In this document: piece after piece, positions 2 through 24,313 of the stretch
Layout: each line of letters begins with the position of its first letter
How positions within the stretch are numbered: the first letter of the stretch is position 1
NCBI GenBank assembly: GCA_000002435.2
Contig: CM018789.1
DNA: 64,000 nt
DNA from: Giardia intestinalis
Taxonomy: Eukaryota
Strand: one strand, 5' to 3'
The notes under the pieces: generated by a model
Told to the model about the DNA's origin: nothing
Database searches by the model: none
The model's input: only the letters and a program-made list of their open reading frames with translations
Made by a program: the position numbers and the translations under genes

Positions 2-1129
2 TTGGAAGACTCGACCTCTAATAACCCAATCAGCCACTCAGAGATGGACAGACCCAGGAGTCTGCACAGACCAGGAGAAATGGAGGTTCTTAATATCCTT
101 TCAGACCCCGTGCGCTTGAGCGACACGTTGATAATTCGCAATCTTGTGAAAAGGTACAAAGACTTTAAGGCACTGTCAGGAATAGATATGTACATTGGCC
201 CTGGTGAATGTATATGCATTAATGGAATCAATGGGTCCGGCAAATCCACGTTGCTCCACTGTATTGTCCACCTGGAGCAGTACAGTAGCGGAAGGATCTC
301 ATATCCCAAAACTATTGGGTTTGTTTCGCAGTATAATACGTTGTGGGATAATCTTACAGCATCCCAGCATATCAAGCTCATGTTGAGAGCGCGGGGATTA
401 CCTACAACGGCTGCAAACGTCAGTGCTGCACTGGAAGAGGTCGGCTTGGGAGGTGTAGAGAAACGTAAGGTAGGACAGTTCTCCTACGGAATGAAGAGGC
501 GCACTTGTCTCGCCATGGCCCTTGCTGGAAGGCCCTCTCTATTTCTGCTCGACGAGGTTACGTCTGGGGTCGATCCTGGCTCAAAGGAGAAAATTTGGGC
601 AGTCATTCAAAGACAACAGCAACAGAGGTCTGCGGTTGTACTAACGTCGCACTCCATCCGCGAGTGTGAGATCCTGGGCACTCGGATAGTCATAATGGGC
701 GCAGGAAAGGTGGCAGCTGTAGGGTCCTCAAGCGAGCTTAAAAACTCGCATGTATATGGCTATTCGTTAACTGTAGAAGCTGTGCATACGGATGGGATAA
801 CGTCTGAACAAGTCATGCACAATATTCATGCATCCGGGGTCCTTGATGGTGTATCGGACGCCGCTGCAGCCCTTGCGCTGGCAGAGGCCGACTCTGTCCA
901 CGGAAAGCCGAGGGTGGGGAAGATCAAGCTCCGCCAGGTCACGGGCAGGATCGTGATCGTGGAGCTTCCGAAGCTGCCCCTCCCGGCTGTGGCGGCTGTC
1001 TACCGGGGGATAAAGGCGCTGGAGGCAGTCAGATCTGTGGCCCTCCGCTCCCCCAACCTGGAGCCCATATTCACCGAGTACGCCCTCCTCAGCGAGAGGA
1101 AGGATGACGGGTCCCCGGTGTCCCTGTAG
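2..1129 (+). CDS. ABC transporter, C-terminal nucleotide-binding domain (ABCA-like), 5'-partial
   Basis: Walker A GINGSGKSTLL, ABC signature FSYGMKRRTCLAMALAG, Walker B LFLLDEVTSGVD. The ORF runs off the window start. The Ala-rich C-terminal tail lies in the GC-rich island. The gene converges on and overlaps the next gene by 41 nt. Confidence 0.85.
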   Translation: MEDSTSNNPISHSEMDRPRSLHRPGEMEVLNILSDPVRLSDTLIIRNLVKRYKDFKALSGIDMYIGPGECICINGINGSGKSTLLHCIVHLEQYSSGRISYPKTIGFVSQYNTLWDNLTASQHIKLMLRARGLPTTAANVSAALEEVGLGGVEKRKVGQFSYGMKRRTCLAMALAGRPSLFLLDEVTSGVDPGSKEKIWAVIQRQQQQRSAVVLTSHSIRECEILGTRIVIMGAGKVAAVGSSSELKNSHVYGYSLTVEAVHTDGITSEQVMHNIHASGVLDGVSDAAAALALAEADSVHGKPRVGKIKLRQVTGRIVIVELPKLPLPAVAAVYRGIKALEAVRSVALRSPNLEPIFTEYALLSERKDDGSPVSL

Positions 1130-2543
1130 AGGGGCTAGTGTGAACATGTTTTTCGAGGTAGTCGTCAATGCCCAGCGTCTCCCCGCTGGTGGTCAACACC
1201 CGTGTGTTCTCTCCGCAGACGGCCGGGTTGATGTGCGGGTTGTGGAGCTCCGAGATCTGGCTCGAGCATGCCTGGGCAGGGTCGCCGGAGGAGGAGAGGG
1301 CGCCGTCCCAGAACTCGTTCCCCGGGAGCGCGTTCCCGTCCCACGCGTACGAGACCACCAGGAGCTTGCCTCTGTGCTCCGCCGGCAGGCTGTCGTGGGG
1401 GTTTCGCCTGGAGAAGCGCACGCGGATGTGCTCGTAGGTCGCCCGGGGGAGGGCCTGGGCGGTGAACCACGCAAAGTCCAGGTCGCTTATGCCCGCGAGA
1501 CGCCCTGCCAGCCTTGCGAGGCAGCGGGCGAAGGTCTCGAGGAAGACGGGCTCCTGGGCCGGAGACAGCGCCCAGACGCCCAGCCCGATCCCGACAACGT
1601 GAACGTAGGCCCTCGTGCCGGCGCGGGTGGCGCGGGAGTGTGCCTCCAGCAAAAGGGTCTCGAAGGAGATCGCCAGCCTTGCAGAGTACGCCTGCCTATT
1701 CAGATACAGGTCCCCGATCGGAAGGTACTTGTCGGAATCTGCGCTGCTCCTAACCCGGTCGTACAGCGGAAGGCACGGGAGACCGTAGAGCTCGGCCCAC
1801 ATCTGCCTCCACGAAGCGGCCGCCGTGGGCTCTCCGGAGGGCTCTCCATACCCGCGCGCCCTAACGTTCTGGTCCTTGGAGACGACGACCTCCTCCCACT
1901 CCATGACGCCCTCCTTTTCCAGGCGAGGGCCGATGAGCCCGATCACAACCCCGTGGCTCTGGACGGCCTCGCGAGACGGCACCGGAACGCCCCTGTTCTC
2001 CCGGGACCCGTTGTTGATAAACACGCTGTACGAGCTGACCGACAGGAGCGCAGAGAGCTTGATCTCGTCGTAGGTCAAGCGCTCTGGCAGCGAGCCCCCG
2101 CCCCAGCCGCGCCCCCGCGTGCCGTCCAGTAGCGTGAAGGAGTCCTCGCAGCCGTAGAAGGATACCGCTCTTTTTGTGAGGAGGCGGTGGACAAGCGCGG
2201 TGACGGTCATGCCGCGATACAGCTCCCTCTCGGAAGGCGTTCCGTGGCGGGCCTTGTGGCGGAGGAAGCTGGCGTAGAGGCGCACCGCAGACTCGTGAAG
2301 CAGGGGGTACGCGGACTCGGCGAAGGCCGACAGCTGCTGCGGAGAGGCCACGCCGCGCTGGAGAAGGTACTGGCAGCGGACAGTCTGGACCGGAAAGGGC
2401 ACGGAAAACCGGGCGCTCCTGGACATGAGCGCCGCCAGCAGGGGGCATTGATCCGCCCGTGGCTGCTCTCCCAGCGGCTCTGCAGTGCTAATCATTTTAT
2501 CTTGGCGCTCACGGTCCCGAGGCGCCAAGCTGTGGGGTGCCAC
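1089..2543 (-). CDS. hypothetical protein of about 468 aa; very GC-rich, function unknown
   Basis: Long minus-strand ORF. The first ATG with an A-rich context (AAGATAAAATG) is at 2495; the track start at 2543 is probably a non-ATG codon. Local GC is about 67% versus about 45% in neighbouring genes. I recognise no motif confidently. Confidence 0.6.
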   Translation of the reverse strand: MAPHSLAPRDRERQDKMISTAEPLGEQPRADQCPLLAALMSRSARFSVPFPVQTVRCQYLLQRGVASPQQLSAFAESAYPLLHESAVRLYASFLRHKARHGTPSERELYRGMTVTALVHRLLTKRAVSFYGCEDSFTLLDGTRGRGWGGGSLPERLTYDEIKLSALLSVSSYSVFINNGSRENRGVPVPSREAVQSHGVVIGLIGPRLEKEGVMEWEEVVVSKDQNVRARGYGEPSGEPTAAASWRQMWAELYGLPCLPLYDRVRSSADSDKYLPIGDLYLNRQAYSARLAISFETLLLEAHSRATRAGTRAYVHVVGIGLGVWALSPAQEPVFLETFARCLARLAGRLAGISDLDFAWFTAQALPRATYEHIRVRFSRRNPHDSLPAEHRGKLLVVSYAWDGNALPGNEFWDGALSSSGDPAQACSSQISELHNPHINPAVCGENTRVLTTSGETLGIDDYLEKHVHTSPSTGTPGTRHPSSR

Positions 2544-2789
2544 GACGGCAGAGGAGGCGCACAGCTCTGACCGCCTCTAGGGCACAGGGTTGCAAATATT
2601 GTAGGTTTGTGTAGAAGGCGGAATTACCTAAGCCGCATTAGATAATCCGTGATCCATTTCTCATCTTGCCAGATAGTGCTACTTTGGATCAGGAGATGGA
2701 CAAAGTCCAGCATTAGTTCGTACCAGCAGCACAATATATGATGGCCATTGTATAGAGTACTGCCCTAAAACACAATCTATTCCAGTAGG

Positions 2790-5696
2790 TCACTTTACAC
2801 TGATACCCCTTTTGGAGTACTTTTCCAACTTCCAATCAGCGTGATCGCGTGTCGAAACCCTTGGAGCGCATACGGAGATAGTGTTATTCTTTTTGCTATA
2901 CATTGTAGAGTTCAGTACAGAAGCCGTGCCATATTTTACTAGATTTTCTCTTGTAACACCACAGTTAACAGAGGAATCGGATGCAGTGCGAAAGCGAGCC
3001 TTGATTTGCTCTCTTGTCTTTACAACATCCCGAATATCAACATACACAGCGGAGTGCTTGGTATTGCTTCCTCCGAATGGGATCAGGTTGGGGCCATAGA
3101 CGGAGGTGAGCTGCCATGAGTCTAGAATCTTACGCTCCCTTTTATTCGATGCAAACTTTTCGTACCTGAGCAAAGCGTTCTTTTCAAAGAAGTTTAGGGG
3201 CCCTTGATGAGTGCCCGCCGTACTACTATTAGTCTCTAGTTTATGTGCTCTCATATGCACCACTCCAGAAGGTACTTCCTTGCAGATATTACTAATCTGT
3301 GTCTTAGACTTCTTAAGCAGTGGTGCGCTATTCAATTCGCATATCTTTGTGTTTATCATTTCGTTAGTAAAGTCTTCTTGCACAGCGGTAGATTCGATTG
3401 GGAGATTACTTTTCATTAAAAGCGAGTGACGATGAATAGTCTTTCCTGTATCAACAGCTCGTATATTCGAGCTAACTATGCTGTGGGATAGAATCTTATC
3501 AGGCACCTGATCCTGAAGCGTCCTGGCAAGGCTGCGAACAGCGCCTCTGAAGGAAATAGTGGTGTTGTTCAAACTAGGCAAGGATGGCTGCACGGTCGTT
3601 AAGTCGTGTTGACGACGCTCAGAGGATACTGAATCTAACATGCTAAGTGTCAGTTTTGGTGCAGCTTTACCAGTTGTTTCATATAACTCGTGTGGCTGGT
3701 AGTCGTCAGTTGGGGCGTGTGCACAGCTTTCACGTTGAATACCTAAATTAGCGAGAGATTCGTCGTTCTCAACTTGTTTGCCTGCCTCTACGTTGTTGTC
3801 AATGGTATACGATCGTTCCATCCCAGCCCGTGAATTGGGCTTTGCAACTGTACCGCTGTGGTAACCCTTTGAGGCAGAGGATAGTTGGGAAAGACCTTCC
3901 AAGTGGAAAGTGCTGCCTTCTCCATCCTCAGTACCATGCCTTGCTTTTGAATACCTAACGAGTTCGTTGCTAGAAATGGGTTTATCTAATGAGAGCCGCT
4001 TAAATCCTAAGTCTTTGCATTCAAGAACATAATTTCTTTTCACAAACGCATCTTGGGAGTATACCTTATCAATAGCTTTCCTCGTATGGACAATGCAATG
4101 GTCATGAGCTGGCTGCATATAAAGCGTCGCAGATCCATCTACTGCGTTGGCTATGATTACCCCATCCACGTGCCTATCTAGTATAAAGGACTTATACGTG
4201 GTTGAGCCATTATATGAAGTACTAATCGGGAGCATGTTTGCCAGGGCAATCGGAATGGAGACGTCTATTTGCATGTGATTTGTAAATCGTGAGAGAACAG
4301 CCTCATAGTTACCATCAAAGGTTGCCTTTTCGTGAATTGCAGCATCTGGTCCTAGTGGGACCATACTCTGTCTCAGGGACTTAGATTCTACCGCGCACTT
4401 GTCAAGCACGCCAGGAGTCAACAATCTCTTTCGGAAGGTTGCCAAACATGATCTGTAAGTAGCGCTATTCTCATCTACTGGAACGTCAGTATTATAATAT
4501 AGTTGAGATTTTACAAGGTGCTTGGTATCGCCGCTGGATTCGTTGCTGGCCTCCAATCTGTACTCTGCTAAGACCTCATAGAGAAGCTCCTCATAATCAC
4601 TGTCCGAAAAGCTCATGTCACTTCTTGGCTCGGCAAACGTGACCATGTCGCTGTGCCATGAACAGTCTTCCTTGACCCTGTTATAAAGGCAATCTTCCGC
4701 TAGTATGGAATCACTAATAGCAAGGGTGTCATCCAGTCTGCACTCCTTAATGGAAACTTCAGGAGATGACCCCAGCATAGCTTTTTCTGCTGGACTAATA
4801 GCCTTCTCTGAACGTTCACAAATGACTGTGTCAATAGCCTCAGGATTAATACAACTAGCCAGCGTGTCAATATCTAACAAAATTTGATTCTCATTGTCTG
4901 CAGGCTCTCTTTGCTGGAATGCGTCAGAGCTCCGGCATGCTGAAGCGCAGTCGGAGGAGTGCTTTAGATAGGCATCAGGCGGTGTCAGTGTGCTGAAATC
5001 CATCTTCTTAGCATCAGAAGCACGGGGAGCCGTCGGCGTGTAAGAGATAGGAGTCATGATACTAGGTCTTCTACTGGTATTTGCACTGCTAGTAAGTAGG
5101 GTATCTATGGTTAAATTATTGAGCTGGTCAAGATCTTTTCGGCTTAAGGAGCCGCGGCTCCGTGCAAACCGTTTGAGCCTCTCTAAAGAGGTAGAGGTCG
5201 GTTTGGTTATCAAAGACCCCTTTCCGGCCATATCTATTTCCTCCTTCTCCAGTAAACACTGCTCTGGCTCCAATTCATCTGGATGAAGGCTGTTTTCTGA
5301 TTCAGATAGGATCCGGAGTATCGCCATTTGCTCTGCTAATGATGCAGAGTTGCGGACAGAGTCTTTTACTATAATACCAACTGAGTTGCGCCAGTGCATT
5401 AGTTCGGGGGGAAGGTCGATTCCATGCATGCTGACCACTTGTGGTTTAAGTTTCTCTATCACTTCCTCGTTGAAAAGCGTGGACATGTACTCTTCTGAAA
5501 CCATTTTTGATGAAAGCGTAAACAAAACCCGGGCCTTTTCAAACTTGTCTACCGTCGCTTTCTGATGTTTCAACGTCAGACCCTGATTGTAATAAAAAAG
5601 CTCGGGCCGGAGGAGAAGGGTTCCGTCTGCATACTTATTATCCATTCCCAGATCCGTCAGTTTGGGTAAGGGCCCGTGAGCCTCATCCATGCCCAC
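2790..5696 (-). CDS. hypothetical Ser-rich protein (968 aa)
   Basis: Uninterrupted 2.9 kb ORF with low-complexity Ser/Thr-rich segments and no recognised domain. Confidence 0.6.
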   Translation of the reverse strand: MGMDEAHGPLPKLTDLGMDNKYADGTLLLRPELFYYNQGLTLKHQKATVDKFEKARVLFTLSSKMVSEEYMSTLFNEEVIEKLKPQVVSMHGIDLPPELMHWRNSVGIIVKDSVRNSASLAEQMAILRILSESENSLHPDELEPEQCLLEKEEIDMAGKGSLITKPTSTSLERLKRFARSRGSLSRKDLDQLNNLTIDTLLTSSANTSRRPSIMTPISYTPTAPRASDAKKMDFSTLTPPDAYLKHSSDCASACRSSDAFQQREPADNENQILLDIDTLASCINPEAIDTVICERSEKAISPAEKAMLGSSPEVSIKECRLDDTLAISDSILAEDCLYNRVKEDCSWHSDMVTFAEPRSDMSFSDSDYEELLYEVLAEYRLEASNESSGDTKHLVKSQLYYNTDVPVDENSATYRSCLATFRKRLLTPGVLDKCAVESKSLRQSMVPLGPDAAIHEKATFDGNYEAVLSRFTNHMQIDVSIPIALANMLPISTSYNGSTTYKSFILDRHVDGVIIANAVDGSATLYMQPAHDHCIVHTRKAIDKVYSQDAFVKRNYVLECKDLGFKRLSLDKPISSNELVRYSKARHGTEDGEGSTFHLEGLSQLSSASKGYHSGTVAKPNSRAGMERSYTIDNNVEAGKQVENDESLANLGIQRESCAHAPTDDYQPHELYETTGKAAPKLTLSMLDSVSSERRQHDLTTVQPSLPSLNNTTISFRGAVRSLARTLQDQVPDKILSHSIVSSNIRAVDTGKTIHRHSLLMKSNLPIESTAVQEDFTNEMINTKICELNSAPLLKKSKTQISNICKEVPSGVVHMRAHKLETNSSTAGTHQGPLNFFEKNALLRYEKFASNKRERKILDSWQLTSVYGPNLIPFGGSNTKHSAVYVDIRDVVKTREQIKARFRTASDSSVNCGVTRENLVKYGTASVLNSTMYSKKNNTISVCAPRVSTRDHADWKLEKYSKRGISVK

Positions 5697-6918
5697 TATC
5701 CCTTTTGGATTTTATCTAACAAATTCGCTCATGGAATTATCGGAAAACCCTGCAACCCCGGCTGCCTTGCGGCAACGTGCGAGCCTTACCGGTCACTACC
5801 TGCCTAAGGTAAGGCATGAGGCGACTCACTCGAGACAAACCAAGCAGAAGACAATGGCAAATAGTGATGGGCCGAGAGGGTCTGTGCATGATTTTAATGG
5901 ATTTTTAGGACCGTCCACACATCAGAAGCATAAGTTCTGTCCTGAAGCCTCTGACGGTTCCCAACCCATGAGACGGCCACGGGATGTCAATATATTAAGT
6001 CATACCCTTCGTCAATGCCAACAGAGGATAGATCAGTTTCCACCGATCCAAGCAGGTCGTTGGCTTCAAACAGATCTTCGGCTGGCTATGGAGAAAGATG
6101 AAAAAAGCAAAGTTCCGGAAGAGATTAGTGATTTACGCCACAAGACCCAAAGTCCCAGCCATTCATTCGCTCAGTCCACAAATAAGAAGTCAAGCACAAC
6201 AGCCCATACTGCGATGAGCGTACAAAGAGTTCTCTCAGCGCATGATAGCCTACCGCCGAGTCCTCGCAGAGCCATATCACCTCCGTTTAAGACGCGGTTA
6301 ATCCGCGAAATGCTCCCAACAATGAACACTCACCAGGGACTGGTACCGAAGACAGACGCCTACAAACGTGGCTACCACACAGCGGGAGACTATTCTCCAT
6401 CTACGAAGAGAGTCATAGATGACTTAGACAAGGCGCGCTGTGACCTCATTCTTCTTCCCACTAATCAGAAGCTAAGCATACAAGAAGTTACTGCACAAAC
6501 GGATCGATATAAGCAAATAGCTGGCCACCGGACATTTTCGATTCGATTTGAGTCATCAGCAGATAATGCCTTGGAGGATGAGCCCTACCAGAGACGTCCC
6601 TACCTTTTACAAAAGTCTCCAGACAGGCGCAAACGGGCCCTGTCTCCGGCAGCATTTAATGCTACATTAGAAGAAATTCAATTCAAGCAGATGCACACCC
6701 TTCGGCACACAAGTAAAAACCTCTTTGCACGACCTGTTAATATAATAGATTTAGAACCTAGTAGCTCCGTGGAGAACACGGCTTCAGATATGCTCGAATG
6801 TGTTAAAGCATCACAATCAACGGGTAATTCTCAAGCCTCTAACTCAGAGCAATACAGCCCCAATATATGCCTTCCCTTGATGAATAACATGCCCTGTTCT
6901 TCATTTCCCATACTGTAA
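5689..6918 (+). CDS. hypothetical Ser/Pro-rich protein
   Basis: ORF of 409 codons. The likely true start is the ATG at 5731 (MELSENPA...). It lies head-to-head with the previous gene, with a spacer of about 34 bp. Confidence 0.5.
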   Translation: MPTIPFGFYLTNSLMELSENPATPAALRQRASLTGHYLPKVRHEATHSRQTKQKTMANSDGPRGSVHDFNGFLGPSTHQKHKFCPEASDGSQPMRRPRDVNILSHTLRQCQQRIDQFPPIQAGRWLQTDLRLAMEKDEKSKVPEEISDLRHKTQSPSHSFAQSTNKKSSTTAHTAMSVQRVLSAHDSLPPSPRRAISPPFKTRLIREMLPTMNTHQGLVPKTDAYKRGYHTAGDYSPSTKRVIDDLDKARCDLILLPTNQKLSIQEVTAQTDRYKQIAGHRTFSIRFESSADNALEDEPYQRRPYLLQKSPDRRKRALSPAAFNATLEEIQFKQMHTLRHTSKNLFARPVNIIDLEPSSSVENTASDMLECVKASQSTGNSQASNSEQYSPNICLPLMNNMPCSSFPIL

Positions 6919-6932
6919 GCTCGCCACCCGTG

Positions 6933-8096
6933 TCACGCGTCCATAAATCCACGACAGTTTGGCGCGTTGCAAAAGCACTGCAGTCGTATGTCTCCCTCCA
7001 TTTGCCGAAGGTGATAGTTATAGCAGAGCTCATCTCCGGGCGAAATGTTTTCGAGGGCACGTAGATACAGTCTATTTTCTATCACATGAACTTCACAGTT
7101 TGGTAAGCAGCTGTGATTGGCAAACCTGGCGGCGTTTCCAATGAAAGTTGCGTCTACGATGATCTCCTGGTTTGATGAAATGCTGAACATGTAAGTAGAA
7201 GTAAATCCCTTGCTGCTCAAGATGCGCTCCCTTTGGTTGGCCTGTTCCTTGTTGACAATCTCTCCCACATACTCGATGACGTTTTTTCCTCGCGGAATGT
7301 ACACTAGCGCAAAGAGCCCGTGCCCGTGAATCGAAGACTTCATGACACAGCAGCTCTGACCTAGCATGAGCCTGTGGCGCTCTTTCCAGGACATTGGTGG
7401 GCCAGGACCAATCTTGGCTGCATCGTGCTTAAGGTAACAATCGGTAAAGTTCTGGAGAGACCGTTCTAGATAGCAGCTAGGAAGAAGTCGGCCTTGCTGT
7501 CTCTGTATATGCCTTATCTTGCGATTGACAAAAGCTCTCGAGAAGTATGGAGGAGTGTGCTTTTGCTGAAAGTATACCTGATAATATAGCTCTACGGCTT
7601 GATCCATTCTCATGGCCAGTCGACTAAAGTGACACTCATCACCCTCTTCTGTGTCTGGCTCTCTGCTACCGTTATCGTGCTCAGTTTCCCGTTTGACGAT
7701 CTTCCACTGTGCATTCTGATATTCAAGGCAAAGCCGTCTAAAAGCTGTTGCTCGAAGAATGCGTGAGCAATGGTCAAATTTGGCAAGGCTTGCTTCTTTG
7801 AATGTGGCATAGCTTGCCTCTACCTCAGAAGGTGGTGATGTGTAAAAGACAACTATCTGGGTCCTGCCATGCCTTCTTCCTCGGATTGCTGCGTAGGTAA
7901 TGCTGGACATGTACGGAGTCGAGTGGAACTCCTTTAGTGCTTTTAATGTAACTAGATGGGGATTCTGCGTGGTGGTATCGAAAGTTAGAGCTTCCCTCGG
8001 CTCGTATGTAACGCTTTGCTCCCAAATCCCTAATGCACGCAAGGAAGATAGGTTCACAGAATACAAGGGAGGCATGCTCTTTCTTAAATCTTGCAA
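6933..8096 (-). CDS. SET-domain protein lysine methyltransferase
   Basis: Motifs GHGLFA...EYVGEIV, NHSCLPNCEV, ELCYNY, and a post-SET CFCNAPNCRG. The likely ATG is at 8075, with an A-rich context. Confidence 0.85.
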   Translation of the reverse strand: MQDLRKSMPPLYSVNLSSLRALGIWEQSVTYEPREALTFDTTTQNPHLVTLKALKEFHSTPYMSSITYAAIRGRRHGRTQIVVFYTSPPSEVEASYATFKEASLAKFDHCSRILRATAFRRLCLEYQNAQWKIVKRETEHDNGSREPDTEEGDECHFSRLAMRMDQAVELYYQVYFQQKHTPPYFSRAFVNRKIRHIQRQQGRLLPSCYLERSLQNFTDCYLKHDAAKIGPGPPMSWKERHRLMLGQSCCVMKSSIHGHGLFALVYIPRGKNVIEYVGEIVNKEQANQRERILSSKGFTSTYMFSISSNQEIIVDATFIGNAARFANHSCLPNCEVHVIENRLYLRALENISPGDELCYNYHLRQMEGDIRLQCFCNAPNCRGFMDA

Positions 8097-8097
8097 T

Positions 8098-9438
8098 TCA
8101 CTCTAACTGTTCAGCGCACAAAGCGCAAATATGTGCAATGCATGCTTGCAAGTCGCTATCGTACTCATAGCAGAACGGCTTAGGCTCCCCCAGCGAATAT
8201 CGTAACTCATATAAGCTTAGGCACGGAATGTAATGAGCCGCAATTCGGCGGAAATTTGAATTTAGCCACGGAGTAGCTAGGAGTGGACACCGAGCCACAA
8301 AAACAAATGCTGTGAACTGCTTGGCAAAGTTCCCTAGTTTGGCCTCATCAAGCTTGGGACCAAAGTAGCACAATTGTGCAGCAATGCCCTTTCTGCGGAG
8401 CACTTGCTTTAGTTCACGTGCGCCAGCCAGTGTCTCTGAGCGGGCATCCCCAATGATCAGCCCAACTGCTTCAAGTGAAAGTGGATTGATACAGTATTTC
8501 AGACGACTCTTGATGAGGTGCTTGTCATCTGCAAGCGCAGTGGAGATAAGCTTGCATATTTCAGGGGCCTCTACTGTGCTCAGCAGCGATGTCTGTGCGT
8601 CGATAAGTGTTAACTTCTCAATTGATACCTCAGAAGCAGTCGCCAGGATGGACAGGAAAAGGCGTAAGTAGCCTGGAAGTGCAAAGGACCGCACATTATC
8701 CAGAAAGTCTTCAACCATCTTAGTCCCTGCAGTGCACCCGGCATCTTCGTCGTCATCTTCTGACAGAAGAGAGTGCGACATAGCCACAGCGTGTTCTAAG
8801 GGTGTTTGCCCGTAAGACTCGACATAAATCGCGACATGCTTGATGCTTTGCTTTATATTGCCGCCTACTAATGGCAGCAGCCAGTTGTCCCCATTTACGC
8901 AGAGGCGGCGCCCCTTTGGGATTCCAGATATCCGTGCTTTCATCAAGAGGTGTTTTTCAAAGAGGAGAACGGCGTCCTCAGGGAGAGCCAGCCTGCTAGG
9001 GGCGTCTCCTTCTAAGACGTGGCCAGGATGAAGGGATGGTCGCCGTAAAAGGCCAATCAAGCTGCTCACACCGATCATCCCCTTCGATGACACATGGACC
9101 ACAGGGCACACTACGGAATCATAGGCTAATGGACAATAGATATCAATAGCAATGATGACGGGCTGCTTATGGTGAAGCGCACAATCAACGTTTAGGCAGC
9201 ACTCTGTGGGATGCATAATGGTAACGACTGCCCCTGGAAAGGTGGCTGTTATAAGGTTATATACAGTATCTACACAGCTGGATCCTAGAGTGTTACACTG
9301 GATGCAAGCAGTAGACCAGGTCTTGGTCGATAGCTCTGCGCGAAGTTGGACATGCCAAGGAACAATAGTCATTTTATTCGTGAAGCACTGAGGCATTTTT
9401 GAAGAGATCTGGTTTAACCTGTTCTCCACACCATTCAC
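8098..9438 (-). CDS. hypothetical protein
   Basis: ORF of 446 codons. The likely ATG is at 9396 (TCTTCAAAAATG). The product is Cys-containing; I cannot confirm a weak resemblance to the diphthamide-synthesis Dph1/2 family. Confidence 0.5.
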   Translation of the reverse strand: MNGVENRLNQISSKMPQCFTNKMTIVPWHVQLRAELSTKTWSTACIQCNTLGSSCVDTVYNLITATFPGAVVTIMHPTECCLNVDCALHHKQPVIIAIDIYCPLAYDSVVCPVVHVSSKGMIGVSSLIGLLRRPSLHPGHVLEGDAPSRLALPEDAVLLFEKHLLMKARISGIPKGRRLCVNGDNWLLPLVGGNIKQSIKHVAIYVESYGQTPLEHAVAMSHSLLSEDDDEDAGCTAGTKMVEDFLDNVRSFALPGYLRLFLSILATASEVSIEKLTLIDAQTSLLSTVEAPEICKLISTALADDKHLIKSRLKYCINPLSLEAVGLIIGDARSETLAGARELKQVLRRKGIAAQLCYFGPKLDEAKLGNFAKQFTAFVFVARCPLLATPWLNSNFRRIAAHYIPCLSLYELRYSLGEPKPFCYEYDSDLQACIAHICALCAEQLE

Positions 9439-9439
9439 T

Positions 9440-11176
9440 CTACTTCAGAATGCTAAGTTGGAACACCTCATGTCTGGTGGAAAGCTTATAGAAATGGAAG
9501 GTCAAACTGGTGTCAGAAACATCAACTATGACGCACTGATAAAACGATGCCCCATATACAAAGTCCTTTGCCACATAGGCACTTTCGCGGATAGCAGGGC
9601 TTAGAGATGTGGCTTCCAAAGTCGACCACCGAAATTTTCCCCGTAACAAATTAGCGATTCGCTTTGGTGTCCCCCCACTGGTTCCTAGAACAACGGCATA
9701 AAACGAATGGTCTAGATAACCTAACTCACTGCAGACAGAGGTCCTATTATACACTTCAGTTAGATGACTATGGCCGACGACAAAGGCATCAACGTGATAT
9801 TGACAGATGTACGGCTCGAGAAGGAGCGCAAGAGGAAGGGGCTCAGTCTGCGCCTTTGTAATGGTGTACATACTGATGTGACTCACAAGGACGCGAAACT
9901 TTATGTCTGGGCGGTTTGTGGGGGTGTATCTGACCAAGGTTGTGTTCAACCACTTAAGTTGCTCAGGACTGAAAACATGACCCAGAGGAACACCAGTAAG
10001 TTTGTGCCGTTGATAGTCCTCCATGCAATCGAGAATTAGAAACAGTGTGTTGCCATACTCAAGCGTGAGATACTGACCCTCATCGAACGGAGGAATATCA
10101 CCAACTATGTCTGGGTCATAATACTTTCTAGCTGCAGGGGGGATGTACTGGAGAAGATCGTCCCAGTCCCTATAGTTTTGATCACAACTAGTCAAGCCTA
10201 CACGACGCTGAACTACTTGGTGATGATTGAAGAGGTTTTTATAGTTGTTACGATCCGTCACAATGTCTAGAACGTTACGATATAGTTCGTGGTTGCCACT
10301 TGTCGCCAGGAGTGGCTTGTTCCTTAGATAGCTGAACATACCGTGGTCTGCCATCATTTGACGCCATTGAGCCATGACTGCGCCTATTGTCACAAAGTCA
10401 CCGCCATGCACCACAAAATCAGGTTGCTTATCTTCCAAAAAGGACTTTAGGAGGACGTTCACACCATAGCGAGCGTGGGTGTCTGAGATTAGTGCAAACC
10501 TAAAGCCCGTTTGTGGCTTGGGCGCAATAAGATGGTAAATGCTCTTGCTGACAGTCGTTTTATAGAAGTACTTGCGGCCTGGCTGCAACCCAGACAGCCT
10601 AGAGTGATGTGTATGGTCTATAGATTCAACAGGAATTGGTAGCCACATATCTGGTTTCTCCTGAAGTCGAAAATCATCCTCAGTTACCTCAGGGCCAAAG
10701 GTGCTGTTATAAAGCCAGAGCTTATGACCGCTTTTCTCCTGGGTCACCGTGACGGGCTTATGATACCAATTAATCTGTAACGATCCTGTAGGAAGTTCAT
10801 CGGCGAAGGTGAGGAACGGGGAGATGCGTGTCGGAGTTGTCGGATTAGTTATGGCGGAATAGTACAGGCCTGCAGAGACGTATACTAAGGACGACTGGAT
10901 AAAAAGAACATGCGTGATCCAAGAAAGCACGGCTAGGGCGCGCTTAGATGCCTTACACCTTTGTTTATAAAGGCAATGCACACAGGATGCCAATATTATT
11001 ATAACAGAAGAGTGGATGAAGATAGAAACTTGGGTGAAAAAGAGATTGGAAACTCGCCCGAAAATATCTAGCTCAAAGCTCGTAGACCCGATGAACACCA
11101 TGAATCCAACGCTCATTAATAGAACGATGACTGATATTGTGATCTCCACTAGGAGTATTTGTGTCCTCCATGACAT
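9440..11176 (-). CDS. transmembrane metallophosphoesterase (calcineurin-like / purple-acid-phosphatase-like)
   Basis: N-terminal hydrophobic helices, then metallophosphatase motifs ISDTHA, GGDFV, GNHE and VGHSH in canonical order. The ATG at 11176 has the context CCCAAAATAAATG. Confidence 0.8.
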   Translation of the reverse strand: MSWRTQILLVEITISVIVLLMSVGFMVFIGSTSFELDIFGRVSNLFFTQVSIFIHSSVIIILASCVHCLYKQRCKASKRALAVLSWITHVLFIQSSLVYVSAGLYYSAITNPTTPTRISPFLTFADELPTGSLQINWYHKPVTVTQEKSGHKLWLYNSTFGPEVTEDDFRLQEKPDMWLPIPVESIDHTHHSRLSGLQPGRKYFYKTTVSKSIYHLIAPKPQTGFRFALISDTHARYGVNVLLKSFLEDKQPDFVVHGGDFVTIGAVMAQWRQMMADHGMFSYLRNKPLLATSGNHELYRNVLDIVTDRNNYKNLFNHHQVVQRRVGLTSCDQNYRDWDDLLQYIPPAARKYYDPDIVGDIPPFDEGQYLTLEYGNTLFLILDCMEDYQRHKLTGVPLGHVFSPEQLKWLNTTLVRYTPTNRPDIKFRVLVSHISMYTITKAQTEPLPLALLLEPYICQYHVDAFVVGHSHLTEVYNRTSVCSELGYLDHSFYAVVLGTSGGTPKRIANLLRGKFRWSTLEATSLSPAIRESAYVAKDFVYGASFYQCVIVDVSDTSLTFHFYKLSTRHEVFQLSILK

Positions 11177-11190
11177 TTATTTTGGGTCTC

Positions 11191-12441
11191 CTAGAAAATT
11201 AGAAGGGCGCATACCATAAGAGCAGCAAGAAGGAGAACAGGTGAGAAGAGCAGTAGCGCGTTGACTATTCCTCGATGCCTAAAAGACATCTGTAAAGCTT
11301 TATAGACTGTCCTATCGCTAGATGTTTCCTTATAATAACCCAATACCAGTTCTGTCAAATGCGCCTGCCTTTCGTCAACCTCTTGGGGTGTACTATTCTG
11401 GCAGTGGAGGAGACGGACGATAGAGAAACTATTATCACAGCAAAGCATGAGAGGGGTAACCAGGTCGGTCATCTCGGGGAGAAACAGAGCAAATCCCAAG
11501 ACAACACCGAGTTGAGTTAGATATACCTCTGAGATCTGCTCAGGGTCTCCCCTTGTTTGGAGCCGCACGGTTATGCACATGCTGCGGTTCTTGCATAGGG
11601 TTTTTTGCTGTTGTCCGTAAAGCATGACTTTGCGCCCGGGGCTGTACTCTATGCTCATTCTGCTATGGAGATGTTTCTGCTGATACAGGTGGCAGGGAAA
11701 CACCTGTCTCCGAAATATCTCGTCAGCCTGTTGAATAGCAGGATACGATACCCTTAGCACATATACTCTAGGAACATTTGTTTGGAGAAATGTTTGATTC
11801 TTTCCACATGCGCCCTTGTAGATGGAAAGTGCTGCTCGTTTTTCGCCTTTGGTTACTGTTGATATCTTGGCCAGTGATATCGGGTCTATAGGTCTATAAA
11901 TTTGACAAGTTTCGAGGAGGTTGTCTGGATTATCGCCACGGTTGAAGTCATAAATATGGATTTTCAAGTTGGCACTAGCCCGTAAGTACTCAAGTACCGA
12001 TGGGCTGCACAGATTTAATAAGCTGTTGGGCTCTGTAATTATTTGTGCATTTCTTATTATCAATATCTCCATGCACTCGTCAGTGAAGAATCTCTCATGG
12101 CATTGGTCGTCATCTTTCCTCAAAGTGTGGATTGAATTTTCGAGCGATTCATGAAGATTACTGTTCTTTGCCTGTAGACCTACAGCTGGCTCGGGTGCTA
12201 TAATCAAGGATACAAAGCCCAGTTCTACCCTATATGCACCACCTTCTGCTTGTAAAATCCGTGACTTCACATCCAGACTAAGAGTAGCACATTCATAGAT
12301 TTCATGCATTGGCTGTTGATTACCAGTTGTTACAGATTCTGTGCTTGCGATAGCAGTACTCAAGCCCAACGAAAGGGCATGGTCTGCAACTGCAATTGCC
12401 TTTGAGCCACTGCCGATAACAAGCACATCAACTTTGCGCAT
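11191..12441 (-). CDS. hypothetical protein with N-terminal Rossmann-type dinucleotide-binding motif
   Basis: N-terminus MRKVDVLVIGSGSKAIAV (GxGxxA/G) and a C-terminal hydrophobic helix. The ATG context is GAAGAAAAAGATTCATG. Confidence 0.55.
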   Translation of the reverse strand: MRKVDVLVIGSGSKAIAVADHALSLGLSTAIASTESVTTGNQQPMHEIYECATLSLDVKSRILQAEGGAYRVELGFVSLIIAPEPAVGLQAKNSNLHESLENSIHTLRKDDDQCHERFFTDECMEILIIRNAQIITEPNSLLNLCSPSVLEYLRASANLKIHIYDFNRGDNPDNLLETCQIYRPIDPISLAKISTVTKGEKRAALSIYKGACGKNQTFLQTNVPRVYVLRVSYPAIQQADEIFRRQVFPCHLYQQKHLHSRMSIEYSPGRKVMLYGQQQKTLCKNRSMCITVRLQTRGDPEQISEVYLTQLGVVLGFALFLPEMTDLVTPLMLCCDNSFSIVRLLHCQNSTPQEVDERQAHLTELVLGYYKETSSDRTVYKALQMSFRHRGIVNALLLFSPVLLLAALMVCALLIF

Positions 12442-23800: not shown

Positions 23801-24313
23801 CTGGCTGAGAGAGGGGCCTGTAGGTTGCTCTATCAAAAGATGCAGCTTTTCCTCCTGGCCTTTGCTAGAAAAATATGCCATATCTCTGTGCCGAACAAGG
23901 TTTGGATGGATGACAGCACAAGATTGAAAAAGGTAAAAGAGAAGCAAATTATAATCTGGATCATTGACCTGGAGATTGATTTCCTTCCATTGAAAAATAA
24001 GCTCAGAAGCATCTAGTTTGCGACTATTGTCAACCTCGGTAAACAAGTCTTCAAGTCCCTGATAGTCCTGAGCTGTAAGTTCTGAGAAGCAGGGTAAGTG
24101 CCCTAGGCTACCAGAAGCCTTACTTATATCTGAATTCCTTGAGGTGGGTACAGATGAAAGAATGTTTTGGGGTCGTGGAGTTTTTATAGACTTTGTAAAA
24201 GAGGATGAGGTCTGAGTAGAATTAGTTGGAAGCGATAGCTGGACCACTGGAAGATTCGTCTCGCCTTTGTAAGGAGACAAGTCGGAAGCCTTGGCTACGG
24301 AGGCATGATTCAT
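20807..24313 (-). CDS. hypothetical protein (1168 aa)
   Basis: Uninterrupted 3.5 kb ORF. The ATG at 24313 has an A-rich context. It overlaps the 3' end of the previous gene by 14 nt. No domain recognised. Confidence 0.55.
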   Translation of the reverse strand: MNHASVAKASDLSPYKGETNLPVVQLSLPTNSTQTSSSFTKSIKTPRPQNILSSVPTSRNSDISKASGSLGHLPCFSELTAQDYQGLEDLFTEVDNSRKLDASELIFQWKEINLQVNDPDYNLLLFYLFQSCAVIHPNLVRHRDMAYFSSKGQEEKLHLLIEQPTGPSLSQLQLYYTIYPERFSTEVFWDCSAQLILAVDVLNKYKDGTFSSCMWCSPRLTAESIYFNSDGCIKLPQYYPLQDSSIKIDSVKRLNETTSETVVSLITKFADVITHVSGIDKNIVQVKKNEIKCLKSFVRKLAAYRAKPCINIHSLKCRHLSEAAALRQQGRQPTYPFPLKTSTSCHSSVTDKHTHSYGSCEVPLPSAPSDELLTFSQDSPDPSLQSISKMSESPVDNQTFNEDTTARDVLSARTFSLFKEQHSTSALTPVPYGMEASNTLDTVVDVPMPTRLLYEGICRGLSAVKAAASELSKTSGANKKSKNDAFKDGDSKHLLADCELVFFNDFAHKATEESPIVSHGHTLPKTRSAISNMISRKKRLRTLLSYKCMEEINLYYGGNDLQVPGVTKEEVCPSTPYLDAITNANNYDDIDKCINTDKVFTLLLSLDALNQLTEVEPRVISFLKRDAIITKLVNCYFLGEIADESPPFTHRQRRDIYLLFSKVFTHISNNADLLEAILKHQFFKKTLFEMILSADYWLKFTTVKGKEGLSLKDALINKVRKEALERFLQEIFSRADAIHFVRTALCGRYNEIMNALMQLQFASPCIRSSICMRLFDSSLIKLAFNTLLGFIQDILTTNDRRPIGKIICISNHLITFPYTDPTKFKPLTEKIYRLKAYFVDLLFANDSELVALSAYILELIASYYSISMCMSVQAHVMMSTDMVTSAVSEVISSMAEFANTIASMYIAKNPEELSANPLRVQLILMLILRLVLSTGDAARTAFACVKASTYVSSQDSYSQQSLQFQSLDCNELQRSVMGTSVYTGLELPTEWSEESYVSLRNKVKGILKEAGDIISTPVANFMECVMDNEKFRDATTIHFLITRFWIAVADTSHYFGVKPETTMSSVRRRMQLCMDKLNTSARKHSDFTFLKVIPQKVIMMAMSSEPSLTNRWSSSYYSSNSVVLFSLDASHWAWTEKNNEKIESAAQLFGLSAKETLDFLRANLINGR

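What the first reader, a model, noticed from the sequence alone, without database searches (positions are those of the whole stretch)
840..2560. A 1.7 kb GC-rich island (about 67% GC) spanning the 3' ends of two convergent genes
Sampled 60-mers give about 68% GC inside 1100-2500 and about 42% at 3000. The shift begins inside the ABC transporter's C-terminal tail at about 840. It covers the whole convergent gene 1089-2543 and stops at that gene's start. The GC richness produces long spurious ORFs in all six frames (1104-2132+, 1165-1470-, 1861-2448-, and others).

The enclosed 468-aa protein has no motif I can place. Candidate explanations are:
- lateral acquisition of a high-GC (for example actinobacterial) gene
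- a highly expressed Giardia gene with extreme GC3
- GC-biased gene conversion at a recombination hotspot

The island ignores the gene boundary on one side and respects it on the other. That pattern is unusual for a pure codon-usage effect.
Basis: partly seen in the sequence, partly recalled or inferred. Interest (0 to 1): 0.55.

Follow-up and report, generated by a model that had tools for sequence, protein, structure and literature searches.

The report
GC-rich duplicated segment in Giardia
The GC-rich island is real, but it is not foreign DNA: it is exactly one 1,745-bp segment that exists in two copies in the Giardia genome, and the copies keep overwriting each other, which most likely drove its GC content up.

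Summary
The island is real: window 849-2593 has 66.2% GC against 47.8% elsewhere (z = 10.7), and the gene's GC3 is 0.84.

The window is Giardia intestinalis WB. The enclosed gene is GL50803_0061593. It belongs to Pfam PF16062 (MavL-like arginine-specific ADP-ribosylhydrolase, E = 4e-138), and its catalytic loop is intact.

The island coincides, within 4-6 nt at both ends, with a 1,745-bp segment that has a second copy elsewhere. That copy lies at a VSP/CMS1 locus in assemblages A2 and E, and WB carries a second gene, GL50803_0017273. The segment holds the gene, 98 nt upstream of it, and 240 nt of the neighbouring ABC gene's 3' end.

- **Native origin:** two more distant lineages, probably assemblages C and D, carry the same gene at the same position with ordinary GC.
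- **Step inside one gene:** the ABC reading frame jumps from GC3 about 0.5 to 0.8 at the repeat boundary, while protein conservation is unchanged.
- **Concerted evolution:** the paralogs differ by 3.4% within A, but orthologous copies in A and E differ by 10%.
- **Fixation bias:** young variants are AT-biased, whereas older substitutions are balanced.

Best explanation: gene conversion between the two loci with a GC bias. Transfer from a high-GC donor and codon selection are not supported as causes.

In passing, the protein's nearest relatives are arthropod proteins.

The parts
849..2593 (.). The GC island, which is also one copy (at the ABC locus) of a 1,745-bp two-copy dispersed repeat. It is 66.2% GC.
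   Evidence: The copy at the VSP/CMS1 locus of assemblage A2 (L010 9951-11695) aligns ungapped to exactly window 2593-849 at 96.6% identity. A stand-alone Logan contig, L005, spans exactly 849-2593. The CMS1-locus contig L014 starts matching the window at 849. The GC change-points are 855 and 2589.
1089..2495 (-). Gene GL50803_0061593, 468 aa counted from the ATG (an alternative GTG start lies at 2543). It is a MavL-like (PF16062, formerly DUF4804) macrodomain ADP-ribosylhydrolase.
   Evidence: Pfam E = 4.3e-138. The sequence is identical to KAE8301407.1. Against solved structures, Drosophila CG3568 (8dmu) scores E = 2e-89 and CG2909 (8dmt) 1.9e-88. GC3 is 0.838.
1308..1343 (-). Catalytic-loop motif WDGNALPGNEFW, aa 385-396.
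   Evidence: It matches the DUF4804 catalytic-loop pattern WDxx[S/A]xPGN[D/E][F/Y][F/W/Y] given in PMC10951314.
1404..1406 (-). Codon 364 (CGA, Arg). In the other WB copy, GL50803_0017273, this codon is TGA, which truncates that protein at 363 aa, before the catalytic loop.
   Evidence: The variant 1406G>A is present in L006-L009. The protein sequences are and the codon.
2496..2593 (-). Non-coding 5' flank of the gene that lies inside the repeat. It is GC-rich (0.663).
   Evidence: The adjacent intergenic DNA outside the repeat (2594-2789) is 0.413 GC.
849..1129 (+). The last roughly 94 codons of the ABC transporter gene (ORF 2-1129, cut by the window edge), which lie inside the repeat. GC3 is 0.82 here and 0.49-0.52 in the rest of the same ORF.
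   Evidence: Amino-acid identity to the other lineages is the same inside (0.87-0.90) and outside (0.88-0.92) the repeat. Directional AT-to-GC differences are 16:1 inside and 4:7 just outside.
1089..1129 (.). The 41-nt overlap of the two convergent coding regions.
   Evidence: ORF coordinates are. The same 41-nt overlap occurs in assemblage B (L011). The overlap is 6 and 18 nt in L002 and L003.

Best explanation
The island is one copy of a 1,745-bp segment that is present twice in the genome of Giardia assemblages A and E. Assemblage B has a slightly longer version. The segment contains the MavL-like gene, 98 nt upstream of it, and the last 240 nt of the convergent ABC gene.

The original copy is the one in this window, at the ABC locus. 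This is shown: the more distant lineages have the gene there, contiguous with an intact ABC gene. A second copy was placed between a VSP gene and CMS1, and it carries a useless fragment of the ABC tail.

The two copies have kept exchanging sequence by non-reciprocal recombination (gene conversion between loci). This too is shown: copies within assemblage A are three times more alike than the orthologous copies of A and E.

The inferred step is that repair of the mismatched heteroduplex favours G/C over A/T (GC-biased gene conversion). Conversion can only act where the two loci are homologous. The bias therefore pushed GC from about 45% to 66% (GC3 from about 0.45 to 0.84) over exactly the shared tract and nowhere else. 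It acted on coding, non-coding and antisense sequence alike, and it dragged the MavL-like protein towards Gly/Ala/Arg/Pro at its variable positions. New mutations are still AT-biased, so the high GC is held up by a fixation bias and not by mutation.
For: 1. Boundary coincidence. The repeat ends are 849 and 2593 and the GC change-points are 855 and 2589. The same holds at the other locus: L010 has its change-point at 11688 and its repeat end at 11695, and L001 has 1412 against 1406. In assemblage B, L011 has 1908 against 1931-1937.

2. Two copies in one genome. GL50803_0061593 and GL50803_0017273 are both in the WB assembly. A 2013 transcriptome paper lists a 1,407-nt 'gene repeat'. The second locus is seen in A2, E and another A sample, and a second locus is seen in B.

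3. Native origin and derived GC. Two more distant lineages have the syntenic gene at background GC (0.41 in a 0.40 genome, 0.484 in a 0.474 genome). The fraction of Gly, Ala, Arg and Pro is 0.32-0.33 in the A and B proteins, 0.19-0.23 in those lineages and 0.21-0.27 in arthropod outgroups.

4. Concerted evolution. The A ABC-locus copy differs from the A CMS1-locus copy by 0.034. The A and E CMS1-locus copies differ by 0.100 although they share the same junction.

5. Directionality, with an internal control. There are 174 against 6 fixed AT-to-GC-type differences in the repeat. Within the single ABC ORF the counts are 16:1 inside and 15:17 outside the repeat (Fisher p = 0.0014).

6. Fixation bias rather than mutation bias. 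Young variants among the A copies are 14 AT-to-GC against 63 GC-to-AT (implied equilibrium GC 0.30). The older A-stem and E-branch substitutions are 35 against 50 (implied 0.55-0.61), p = 0.0019.

7. Codon choice is compositional. C-ending and G-ending codons are used about equally: CTC 20 and CTG 22, GCC 19 and GCG 19, GGC 17 and GGG 15.

8. Independent literature. Genes inside putative gene-conversion tracts of assemblage A are GC-enriched (median 0.541 against 0.488; PMC12669663). Giardia rDNA, including its spacers, is about 75% GC (PMC10123126).
Against: - GC bias of mismatch repair in Giardia has not been measured. The link from conversion to GC is inferred from pattern.
- Copy number in the low-GC lineages is not proven to be one. 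The evidence is only that contigs cross the downstream boundary unbroken and that differences between samples are spread evenly.
- I could not show that assemblage B's second locus is the same insertion as in A and E, because the flanks show no detectable homology. Saturation makes shared and parallel enrichment indistinguishable. The order of duplication and enrichment therefore rests on the boundary coincidence.
- Polarisation by parsimony at 10-20% divergence in GC-rich DNA can inflate AT-to-GC counts.
- About 280 nt of GC-rich non-coding DNA lies just outside the repeat at the VSP/CMS1 locus (L010 9670-9950) and is not explained.
- Non-coding GC inside the repeat (0.66) is lower than GC3 (0.84), so some codon-level effect or promoter constraint may also act.
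Confidence: 0.65

Rival explanations
1. Recent lateral transfer of a gene from a high-GC donor such as an actinobacterium. On this view the island is un-ameliorated foreign DNA.
For: The composition is strongly atypical (z = 10.7). The protein family has a patchy distribution (PMC10951314).
Against: Orthologues at the same position, convergent with the same ABC gene, have ordinary GC in two more distant Giardia lineages. The island contains 240 nt of the native, conserved ABC coding sequence. None of the named proteins among the top 120 homologues is bacterial; all named ones are arthropod proteins at 40-51% identity. GC has been maintained across about 20% A-B divergence.
Confidence: 0.02
2. 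Translational selection. On this view the gene is highly expressed and uses Giardia's C/G-ending optimal codons (the codon-usage trend described by Lafay and Sharp in 1999, cited from memory).
For: GC3 (0.84) exceeds the non-coding GC inside the repeat (0.66). The locus is transcribed (PMC3792122).
Against: GC1 and GC2 are raised as well. The non-coding 98 nt and the opposite-strand ABC codons are enriched, with a step inside a single ORF. The ABC-tail fragment keeps its GC at the second locus, where it is non-coding (L010 11500-11695 at 0.63-0.66). C-ending and G-ending synonyms are used equally. A ribosomal protein gene nearby (L7Ae) has GC3 of only 0.60. The orthologues in the low-GC lineages show no bias.
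Confidence: 0.05
3. A single piece of GC-rich DNA from an unknown GC-rich relative entered the ancestor. It replaced the native segment by homologous recombination and also inserted ectopically, so the fragment ends became both the island ends and the repeat ends.
For: It would also explain why the island and repeat boundaries coincide. The order of duplication and enrichment cannot be resolved.
Against: The ABC tail inside the segment is no more diverged in protein sequence than the part outside. No Giardia relative with about 67% GC is known (from memory, G. muris is about 55%). GC has been held near 0.55-0.61 equilibrium since the A/E split despite AT-biased new mutations, so a GC-favouring fixation bias is needed in any case. 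Repeat and island extents differ between A and B in the same direction on both sides.
Confidence: 0.1
4. A locally GC-biased mutation process, for example error-prone repair synthesis tied to recombination in the repeat, rather than a fixation bias.
For: The process is bounded by the repeat, as any recombination-associated process would be.
Against: The youngest variants between copies are strongly GC-to-AT (63 against 14; 78 transitions and 8 transversions). That is the opposite of what a GC-biased mutator would leave.
Confidence: 0.08
5. Assembly artefact or contamination.
For: Short-read contigs break at the island edges.
Against: The same GC-rich sequence, with Giardia flanks, is present in independent assemblies of WB, DH, P15 and assemblage B and in many public short-read (Logan) assemblies. 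The contig breaks are what a two-copy repeat produces.
Confidence: 0.01

Closest known systems
GC-biased gene conversion in multi-copy sequences (mammalian histone and Hsp70 paralogues; rDNA across eukaryotes, Escobar et al. 2011, cited in PMC10123126)
   Same: Paralogues evolve in concert. GC is raised at all codon positions and in adjacent non-coding DNA. The enrichment is confined to the converting tract.
   Different: Only two dispersed copies are involved. The organism has no observed meiosis. The boundaries are sharp to within a few nucleotides, and single-copy-like orthologues at normal GC serve as a natural control. The GC3 shift (about 0.45 to 0.84) is large for a two-copy family.
Giardia rDNA (about 75% GC including spacers) and the GC-enriched gene-conversion tracts reported in assemblage A (PMC10123126; PMC12669663)
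   Same: Same organism. Repeated or converting sequences are GC-rich. Gene conversion has been proposed in assemblage A, with tracts of about 3 kb.
   Different: Those reports give a correlation or a suggestion. They do not show a boundary-exact island, a within-ORF step, or a comparison with a low-GC orthologue. I could not check whether this locus is among their 89 genes, because the supplements are not held.
Drosophila CG2909 and CG3568 and Legionella MavL (DUF4804/PF16062 arginine-specific macrodomain ADP-ribosylhydrolases; PDB 8dmt and 8dmu)
   Same: The Pfam match is full-length. The catalytic loop WDGNALPGNEFW fits the family motif. Identity to insect and crustacean members is 40-51%.
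   Different: [quoted passage not shown] Activity and substrate in Giardia are untested. One of the two WB copies is truncated before the catalytic loop.
Laterally acquired genomic islands with atypical GC
   Same: A sharp compositional discontinuity around a gene of patchy phylogenetic distribution.
   Different: The segment is native at this position. It includes part of a native neighbouring gene, and the GC is derived in situ.

Membership tests
PF16062 / DUF4804 MavL-like Arg-specific macrodomain ADP-ribosylhydrolases | Full-length match to the family profile above Pfam's gathering score | tested here: met
   461.4 bits against a cut-off of 27, E = 4.3e-138, profile positions 3-447 of 448.
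PF16062 / DUF4804 MavL-like Arg-specific macrodomain ADP-ribosylhydrolases | Catalytic-loop motif WDxx[S/A]xPGN[D/E][F/Y][F/W/Y] (PMC10951314) | tested here: met
   WDGNALPGNEFW at aa 385-396, window 1308-1343.
PF16062 / DUF4804 MavL-like Arg-specific macrodomain ADP-ribosylhydrolases | Di-phosphate-binding loop motif | tested here: inconclusive
   The exact pattern was cut off in the passage I read. The segment HVVGIGLGVW (aa 299-308) is identical in CG3568, but I did not verify that this is the loop in question.
PF16062 / DUF4804 MavL-like Arg-specific macrodomain ADP-ribosylhydrolases | Macrodomain fold like CG2909, CG3568 and MavL | not tested
   No structure was predicted. Sequence similarity to 8dmu and 8dmt (E = 2e-89 and 1.9e-88 over aa 23-448) makes the fold very likely.
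PF16062 / DUF4804 MavL-like Arg-specific macrodomain ADP-ribosylhydrolases | Hydrolysis of mono-ADP-ribosyl-arginine | not testable with these tools
   This needs an enzyme assay.
Paralogues enriched in GC by biased gene conversion | Two or more homologous copies in the same genome | tested here: met
   There are two WB genes. The 2013 paper calls the locus a gene repeat. The VSP/CMS1-locus copy is seen in A2, E and another A sample. A second locus is seen in B.
Paralogues enriched in GC by biased gene conversion | Concerted evolution: paralogues within a lineage more alike than orthologues between lineages | tested here: met
   A ABC-locus against A CMS1-locus is 0.034. A CMS1-locus against E CMS1-locus is 0.100, and the two share the same junction. 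The copies also cluster by sub-assemblage: 22 sites show the pattern 0011.
Paralogues enriched in GC by biased gene conversion | GC excess confined to the homologous tract, whatever its coding status | tested here: met
   Change-points fall within 4-7 nt of the repeat ends at both A/E loci and about 25 nt away in B. Non-coding DNA, antisense codons and all three codon positions are affected.
Paralogues enriched in GC by biased gene conversion | AT-to-GC excess among fixed changes compared with young variants (a fixation bias) | tested here: met
   Fixed differences are 174 against 6. Young variants are 14 against 63 and older branches 35 against 50, p = 0.0019. Polarisation was by parsimony.
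Paralogues enriched in GC by biased gene conversion | Single-copy orthologues lack the GC excess | tested here: inconclusive
   The low-GC orthologues are shown. Their single-copy status is only inferred from unbroken contigs and evenly spread variants.
Paralogues enriched in GC by biased gene conversion | GC-biased repair of heteroduplex mismatches in this organism | not testable with these tools
   This needs tetrad-like or reporter experiments, or allele-frequency spectra.
Laterally transferred high-GC island | Absent from the syntenic position in related lineages | tested here: not met
   The gene is present at the same position in L002, L013, L003 and L011.
Laterally transferred high-GC island | Nearest homologues in a high-GC donor group | tested here: not met
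   All named close homologues are arthropod proteins.
Giardia highly expressed genes with optimal (C/G-ending) codons | Bias restricted to synonymous sites of the expressed gene | tested here: not met
   GC1 and GC2, the non-coding flank and the neighbour's codons on the other strand are all enriched.
Giardia highly expressed genes with optimal (C/G-ending) codons | High expression level | not tested
   The only evidence is 'transcribed region' in PMC3792122. No quantitative data were available.

The most novel reading that the evidence does not exclude
GC-biased gene conversion in Giardia may be strong enough to raise the GC3 of any sequence that becomes duplicated from about 0.45 to about 0.85. 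If so, a substantial part of the well-known GC3 heterogeneity of Giardia genes could reflect recombination history rather than translational selection, which is the classical explanation. The same would apply to the extreme GC of its rDNA and the GC excess of VSP and other repeated genes. GC islands would then mark where homologous recombination acts in an organism whose sexuality is disputed.
Probability: 0.3. Interest if true: 0.65.

Novelty: new member of a known kind. Interest (0 to 1): 0.45.

Why it matters
The finding turns an apparent foreign island into a clean natural experiment with three contrasts:
- the same gene at the same locus, with a duplicate (assemblages A, E and B: 66% GC) and without detectable duplication (C/D-like lineages: background GC);
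- a GC step inside a single reading frame, exactly at the limit of homology;
- AT-biased young variants against balanced older substitutions.

That is about as direct as comparative sequence evidence can be for GC-biased gene conversion in Giardia, where recombination and sex are still debated. It warns against reading atypical GC as lateral transfer, or as expression-driven codon bias, in this genome.

It also explains why this locus breaks short-read assemblies. Paralogous variants here can be mistaken for heterozygosity or for recombination between sub-assemblages.

Separately, it puts a name (Arg-specific ADP-ribosylhydrolase family) on two 'hypothetical' Giardia genes.

Tried and rejected
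- **NCBIfam scan of the protein:** nothing meaningful.
- **Lateral transfer from a high-GC donor:** rejected as the cause, on synteny, native ABC content and arthropod-like homologues.
- **Pure codon selection:** rejected, on non-coding and antisense enrichment and on equal use of C- and G-ending codons.
- **GC-biased mutation:** rejected, on the AT-biased young variants.
- **Hypermutation hotspot:** at first the 21-29 differences confined to 1155-2558 looked like one. They are better read as differences between the two paralogues, GL50803_0061593 and GL50803_0017273.
- **Retrieving WB's own second locus:** this failed. Going through a homology search for CMS1 produced an assemblage-A contig that ends 79 nt into the repeat.
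- **Which variant sits at which WB locus:** not settled. Short-read contigs link the GL50803_0017273 variant to the ABC flanks, while this window has the GL50803_0061593 variant there. The short-read paths through a 97-98% identical repeat may be chimeric.
- **Single versus parallel enrichment in A/E and B:** the test was uninformative because third positions are saturated.
- **Homology between B's second-locus flanks and the A/E VSP/CMS1 flanks:** none found.
- **Supplementary gene lists of PMC12669663:** not held.
- **Other long repeats in the window, as an internal control:** none exist.
- **RIP-like repeat-induced C-to-T mutation:** considered because the young variants are almost all C>T and G>A. 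An ordinary AT-biased spectrum acting on 66% GC DNA predicts the observed ratio of about 4.5:1, and RIP would lower GC, not raise it.
Full report
**1. The observation**

The GC-rich island is real. In 200-nt windows GC is 0.61-0.695 from about 800 to 2600. It falls to 0.42-0.45 by 2700 and to 0.46-0.55 before 800. Every other 1-kb bin of the 64-kb window lies between 0.43 and 0.52.

Maximum-likelihood change-points are at 855 and 2589. The stretch 849-2593 is 66.2% GC. All other windows of the same length have mean 0.478, SD 0.017 and maximum 0.517, so z = 10.7.

The enclosed ORF (1089-2495, minus strand, 468 aa from the ATG) has GC1/GC2/GC3 of 0.638/0.512/0.838. All other ORFs of at least 150 aa in the window have GC3 of 0.44-0.59. 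The spurious long ORFs in other frames are present.

**2. Organism and gene**

The 468-aa product is identical to GL50803_0061593 (KAE8301407.1) of Giardia intestinalis WB.

It is not motif-less. It matches Pfam PF16062 (MavL-like ADP-ribosylhydrolase, formerly DUF4804) over the whole profile, E = 4.3e-138. It aligns to the solved Drosophila enzymes CG3568 (8dmu, E = 2e-89) and CG2909 (8dmt, E = 1.9e-88).

The family was characterised in 2024 as arginine-specific macrodomain ADP-ribosylhydrolases, with a catalytic-loop motif WDxx[S/A]xPGN[D/E][F/Y][F/W/Y] (PMC10951314). The Giardia protein has WDGNALPGNEFW at aa 385-396.

The left neighbour (ORF 2-1129, plus strand) is the C-terminal part of an ABC transporter. 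The two coding regions overlap by 41 nt.

**3. The key anatomical fact: the island is a two-copy repeat unit**

The 90%-identity cluster of the protein also contains a second WB gene, GL50803_0017273. It is 363 aa and has a premature stop at codon 364. A 2013 transcriptome paper lists a transcribed 1,407-nt 'gene repeat' similar to GL50803_17273 (PMC3792122).

In assemblage A2 (strain DH, locus L010) an intact copy lies at a different locus: VSP, then the MavL-like gene, then a 100-aa ORF, then CMS1, Kri1 and FKBP. Assemblage E (P15, L001) has the same CMS1 flank, and L001 aligns continuously with L010 across the junction.

- blastn of L010 against the window gives one ungapped alignment, L010 9951-11695 to window 2593-849. 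It is 1,745 nt at 96.6% identity and nothing beyond it matches.
- P15 homology ends at window 860.
- A stand-alone Logan contig (L005) spans exactly 849-2593.
- A 59-kb assemblage-A contig coming from CMS1 (L014) begins to match the window exactly at 849 and ends 79 nt later.

The repeat unit therefore comprises the gene, 98 nt upstream of it, and the last 240 nt of the ABC gene. Its ends (849 and 2593) are within 4-6 nt of the GC change-points (855 and 2589).

At the second locus the same coincidence holds. In L010 the change-point is 11688 and the repeat end 11695. In L001 they are 1412 and 1406.

Assemblage B has a GC-rich copy at the ABC locus (L011) and a second locus (L012). Homology between L012 and the ABC locus stops at L011:1937, where GC falls from 0.65 to 0.42. 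The L011 change-point is 1908.

**4. The segment is native and its GC is derived**

Two more distant lineages carry the gene at the same position, convergent with and slightly overlapping the same 956-aa ABC gene. They are L002/L013 and L003, taken from Logan assemblies of public sequencing runs.

Their mutual distance of 0.214 matches the published C-D average nucleotide identity of 78.8, and C+D form a clade apart from B+(A,E) (PMC6939161). They are therefore probably assemblages D and C. This is an inference.

In these lineages the gene has background composition:

| Locus | Gene GC | Gene GC3 | Overall GC of the locus |
|---|---|---|---|
| L002 | 0.41 | 0.376 | 0.40 |
| L003 | 0.484 | 0.50 | 0.474 |

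Differences between two samples of the L002 lineage are spread evenly over 9 kb. Their contigs cross the ABC-tail boundary unbroken. This is consistent with a single copy but does not prove it.

The A and B proteins are shifted towards Gly/Ala/Arg/Pro (0.32-0.33). The two low-GC lineages have 0.19-0.23 and arthropod outgroups 0.21-0.27. Identity to the outgroups is unchanged (0.457 against 0.447 and 0.428). The GC-rich state is thus the derived one, and the change has fallen on variable positions.

**5. Tests that separate the explanations**

(a) *Step within one ORF.* In the ABC reading frame, the 92-94 codons inside the repeat have GC3 of 0.82-0.83 in A and 0.78 in B. Outside the repeat the values are 0.52 and 0.38. 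In L003 and L002 the inside and outside values are 0.60/0.56 and 0.42/0.33. Amino-acid identity is the same inside (0.87-0.90) and outside (0.88-0.92). Directional AT-to-GC differences are 16:1 inside, 4:7 in the adjacent 91 codons and 15:17 over all outside codons, with Fisher p = 0.0014. Expression-linked codon selection and transfer of a foreign gene cannot produce this pattern.

(b) *Non-coding DNA.* GC is 0.663 in 2496-2593, inside the repeat, and 0.413 in 2594-2789, outside it.

(c) *Codon choice.* C-ending and G-ending synonyms are used about equally.

(d) *Concerted evolution.* The A ABC-locus copy differs from the A CMS1-locus copy by 0.034, and the two WB variants differ by 0.017. 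The orthologous CMS1-locus copies of A and E differ by 0.100. Copies group by sub-assemblage rather than by locus.

(e) *Fixation bias against mutation bias.* Across the repeat, sites where L002 and L003 agree and all A and B copies differ are 174 AT-to-GC-type against 6 of the opposite type. Variants among the four A copies, polarised by E and B, run the other way: 14 AT-to-GC against 63 GC-to-AT. Of these young variants 78 are transitions and 8 transversions, and the implied equilibrium GC is 0.30. The older A-stem and E-branch substitutions are 35 against 50 (implied 0.55-0.61), p = 0.0019. Mutation is therefore AT-biased, and something favours fixation of G/C within the tract.

**6. Mechanism**

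The best-supported account is non-reciprocal recombination between the two dispersed copies, with GC-biased repair of the heteroduplex.

Shown:
- there are two copies;
- the repeat and island boundaries coincide exactly;
- the segment is native at this locus;
- the copies evolve in concert;
- the enrichment is blind to position and strand;
- young variants are AT-biased.

Inferred:
- the repair bias itself is the cause;
- duplication preceded enrichment.

Independent observations in the literature fit this account. Genes inside putative gene-conversion tracts of assemblage A are GC-enriched (median 0.541 against 0.488; PMC12669663). Giardia rDNA, spacers included, is about 75% GC, and gBGC has been suggested as one possible cause (PMC10123126). 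My literature searches found no description of this locus or of a boundary-exact case in Giardia.

**7. Caveats**

- I could not show that B's second locus is the same insertion as in A and E.
- I could not show whether enrichment happened once or in parallel, because third positions are saturated.
- Copy number in the low-GC lineages is inferred, not proven.
- Polarisation was by parsimony.
- Short-read contigs link the GL50803_0017273 variant to the ABC flanks, while this window has the GL50803_0061593 variant there. Chimeric paths through a 97-98% identical repeat are a likely reason, but this is unresolved.
- A GC-rich non-coding stretch of about 280 nt just outside the repeat at the VSP/CMS1 locus (L010 9670-9950) is unexplained.

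**8. Origin of the gene (side issue)**

The first 120 homologues after the Giardia sequences are, wherever a source names them, insect and crustacean proteins at 40-51% identity. A search of 1.84 billion cluster representatives found 1,686 related clusters. The named ones nearest to Giardia are again arthropod proteins, and one more distant cluster is from the stramenopile Mucochytrium.

In a rough neighbour-joining tree, without support values, the Giardia clade sits among pancrustacean sequences. This hints at an old exchange with arthropods or a shared donor. It is unrelated to the GC island, because the C/D-like orthologues have normal GC.

**9. Verdict**

This is a new, unusually clean example of a known kind of process (GC enrichment of converting paralogues) in an organism where that process had only been suggested. 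Interest is moderate (0.45).

Noticed in passing
window 1089-2495 (protein); The nearest non-Giardia relatives of this MavL-like protein are insect and crustacean proteins at 40-51% identity. In a rough NJ tree the Giardia clade sits among pancrustacean sequences. [quoted passage not shown] An old animal-Giardia transfer is possible.
   Followed up: partly
window 1404-1406 (codon 364); L006-L009: The second WB copy, GL50803_0017273, carries CGA>TGA at codon 364. This truncates the protein at 363 aa, before the catalytic loop (aa 385-396), so it is probably a non-functional copy. The DH copy at the VSP/CMS1 locus is intact. Variants among the A copies fall 21/15/34 on codon positions 1/2/3, which suggests relaxed constraint.
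   Followed up: partly
window 849-2593 compared with L006-L009: Short-read assemblies of WB-like isolates attach the GL50803_0017273 variant to the ABC-locus flanks, whereas this window (WB reference) has the GL50803_0061593 variant there. L006 also switches variant type near 2500-2560. Either the short-read paths through the repeat are chimeric, or the variants are placed differently in different isolates or assemblies. Paralogous variants here could be misread as heterozygosity or as recombination.
   Followed up: partly
L010 9670-9950 (assemblage A2, between the VSP gene and the repeat): About 280 nt of non-coding DNA at roughly 0.70 GC lies just outside the 1,745-bp repeat. It has no match in the window. 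It may be a relic of a formerly longer repeat (assemblage B's unit extends further upstream) or a separate GC-rich element.
   Followed up: no
L012 1-760 (assemblage-B-like metagenome scaffold, second locus): The region upstream of B's second copy is very GC-rich (0.51-0.79). It includes a 154-aa ORF with no Pfam match. The scaffold contains 10 Ns, so mis-joining is possible.
   Followed up: no
window 1030-1129; L002, L003, L011: The last 33 residues of the ABC protein (RSVALRSPNLEPIFTEYALLSERKDDGSPVSL) are identical in all lineages examined, although they overlap the 3' end of the convergent gene. The overlap is 41 nt in A and B but only 6-18 nt in the low-GC lineages, so the MavL-like protein has a longer C-terminal tail in A and B.
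   Followed up: partly
L002, L003, L013 (starts of the loci): All three contigs from the low-GC lineages begin 290-380 nt upstream of the MavL-like gene. Something just upstream, perhaps a repeat or a coverage drop, breaks assembly there as well.
   Followed up: no
L014 against L010 flank; window island against L010: Divergence between assemblage-A samples is 0.79% over 7.3 kb of CMS1-locus flank but 2.9-3.4% inside the repeat. The island thus carries about four times more differences, nearly all C>T and G>A transitions, with only a moderate CpG excess (0.43 against 0.30 expected).
   Followed up: partly
window 2790-5690, 5689-6918, 8098-9396, 11191-12441, 12470-15046, 20807-24313: Six sizeable ORFs near the island have no Pfam domain. 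Their neighbours include a SET-domain protein (6933-8075), a metallophosphoesterase (9440-11176) and a 1,903-aa protein with an AMP-binding domain (15109-20820). Gene order matches other assemblage-A contigs.
   Followed up: no
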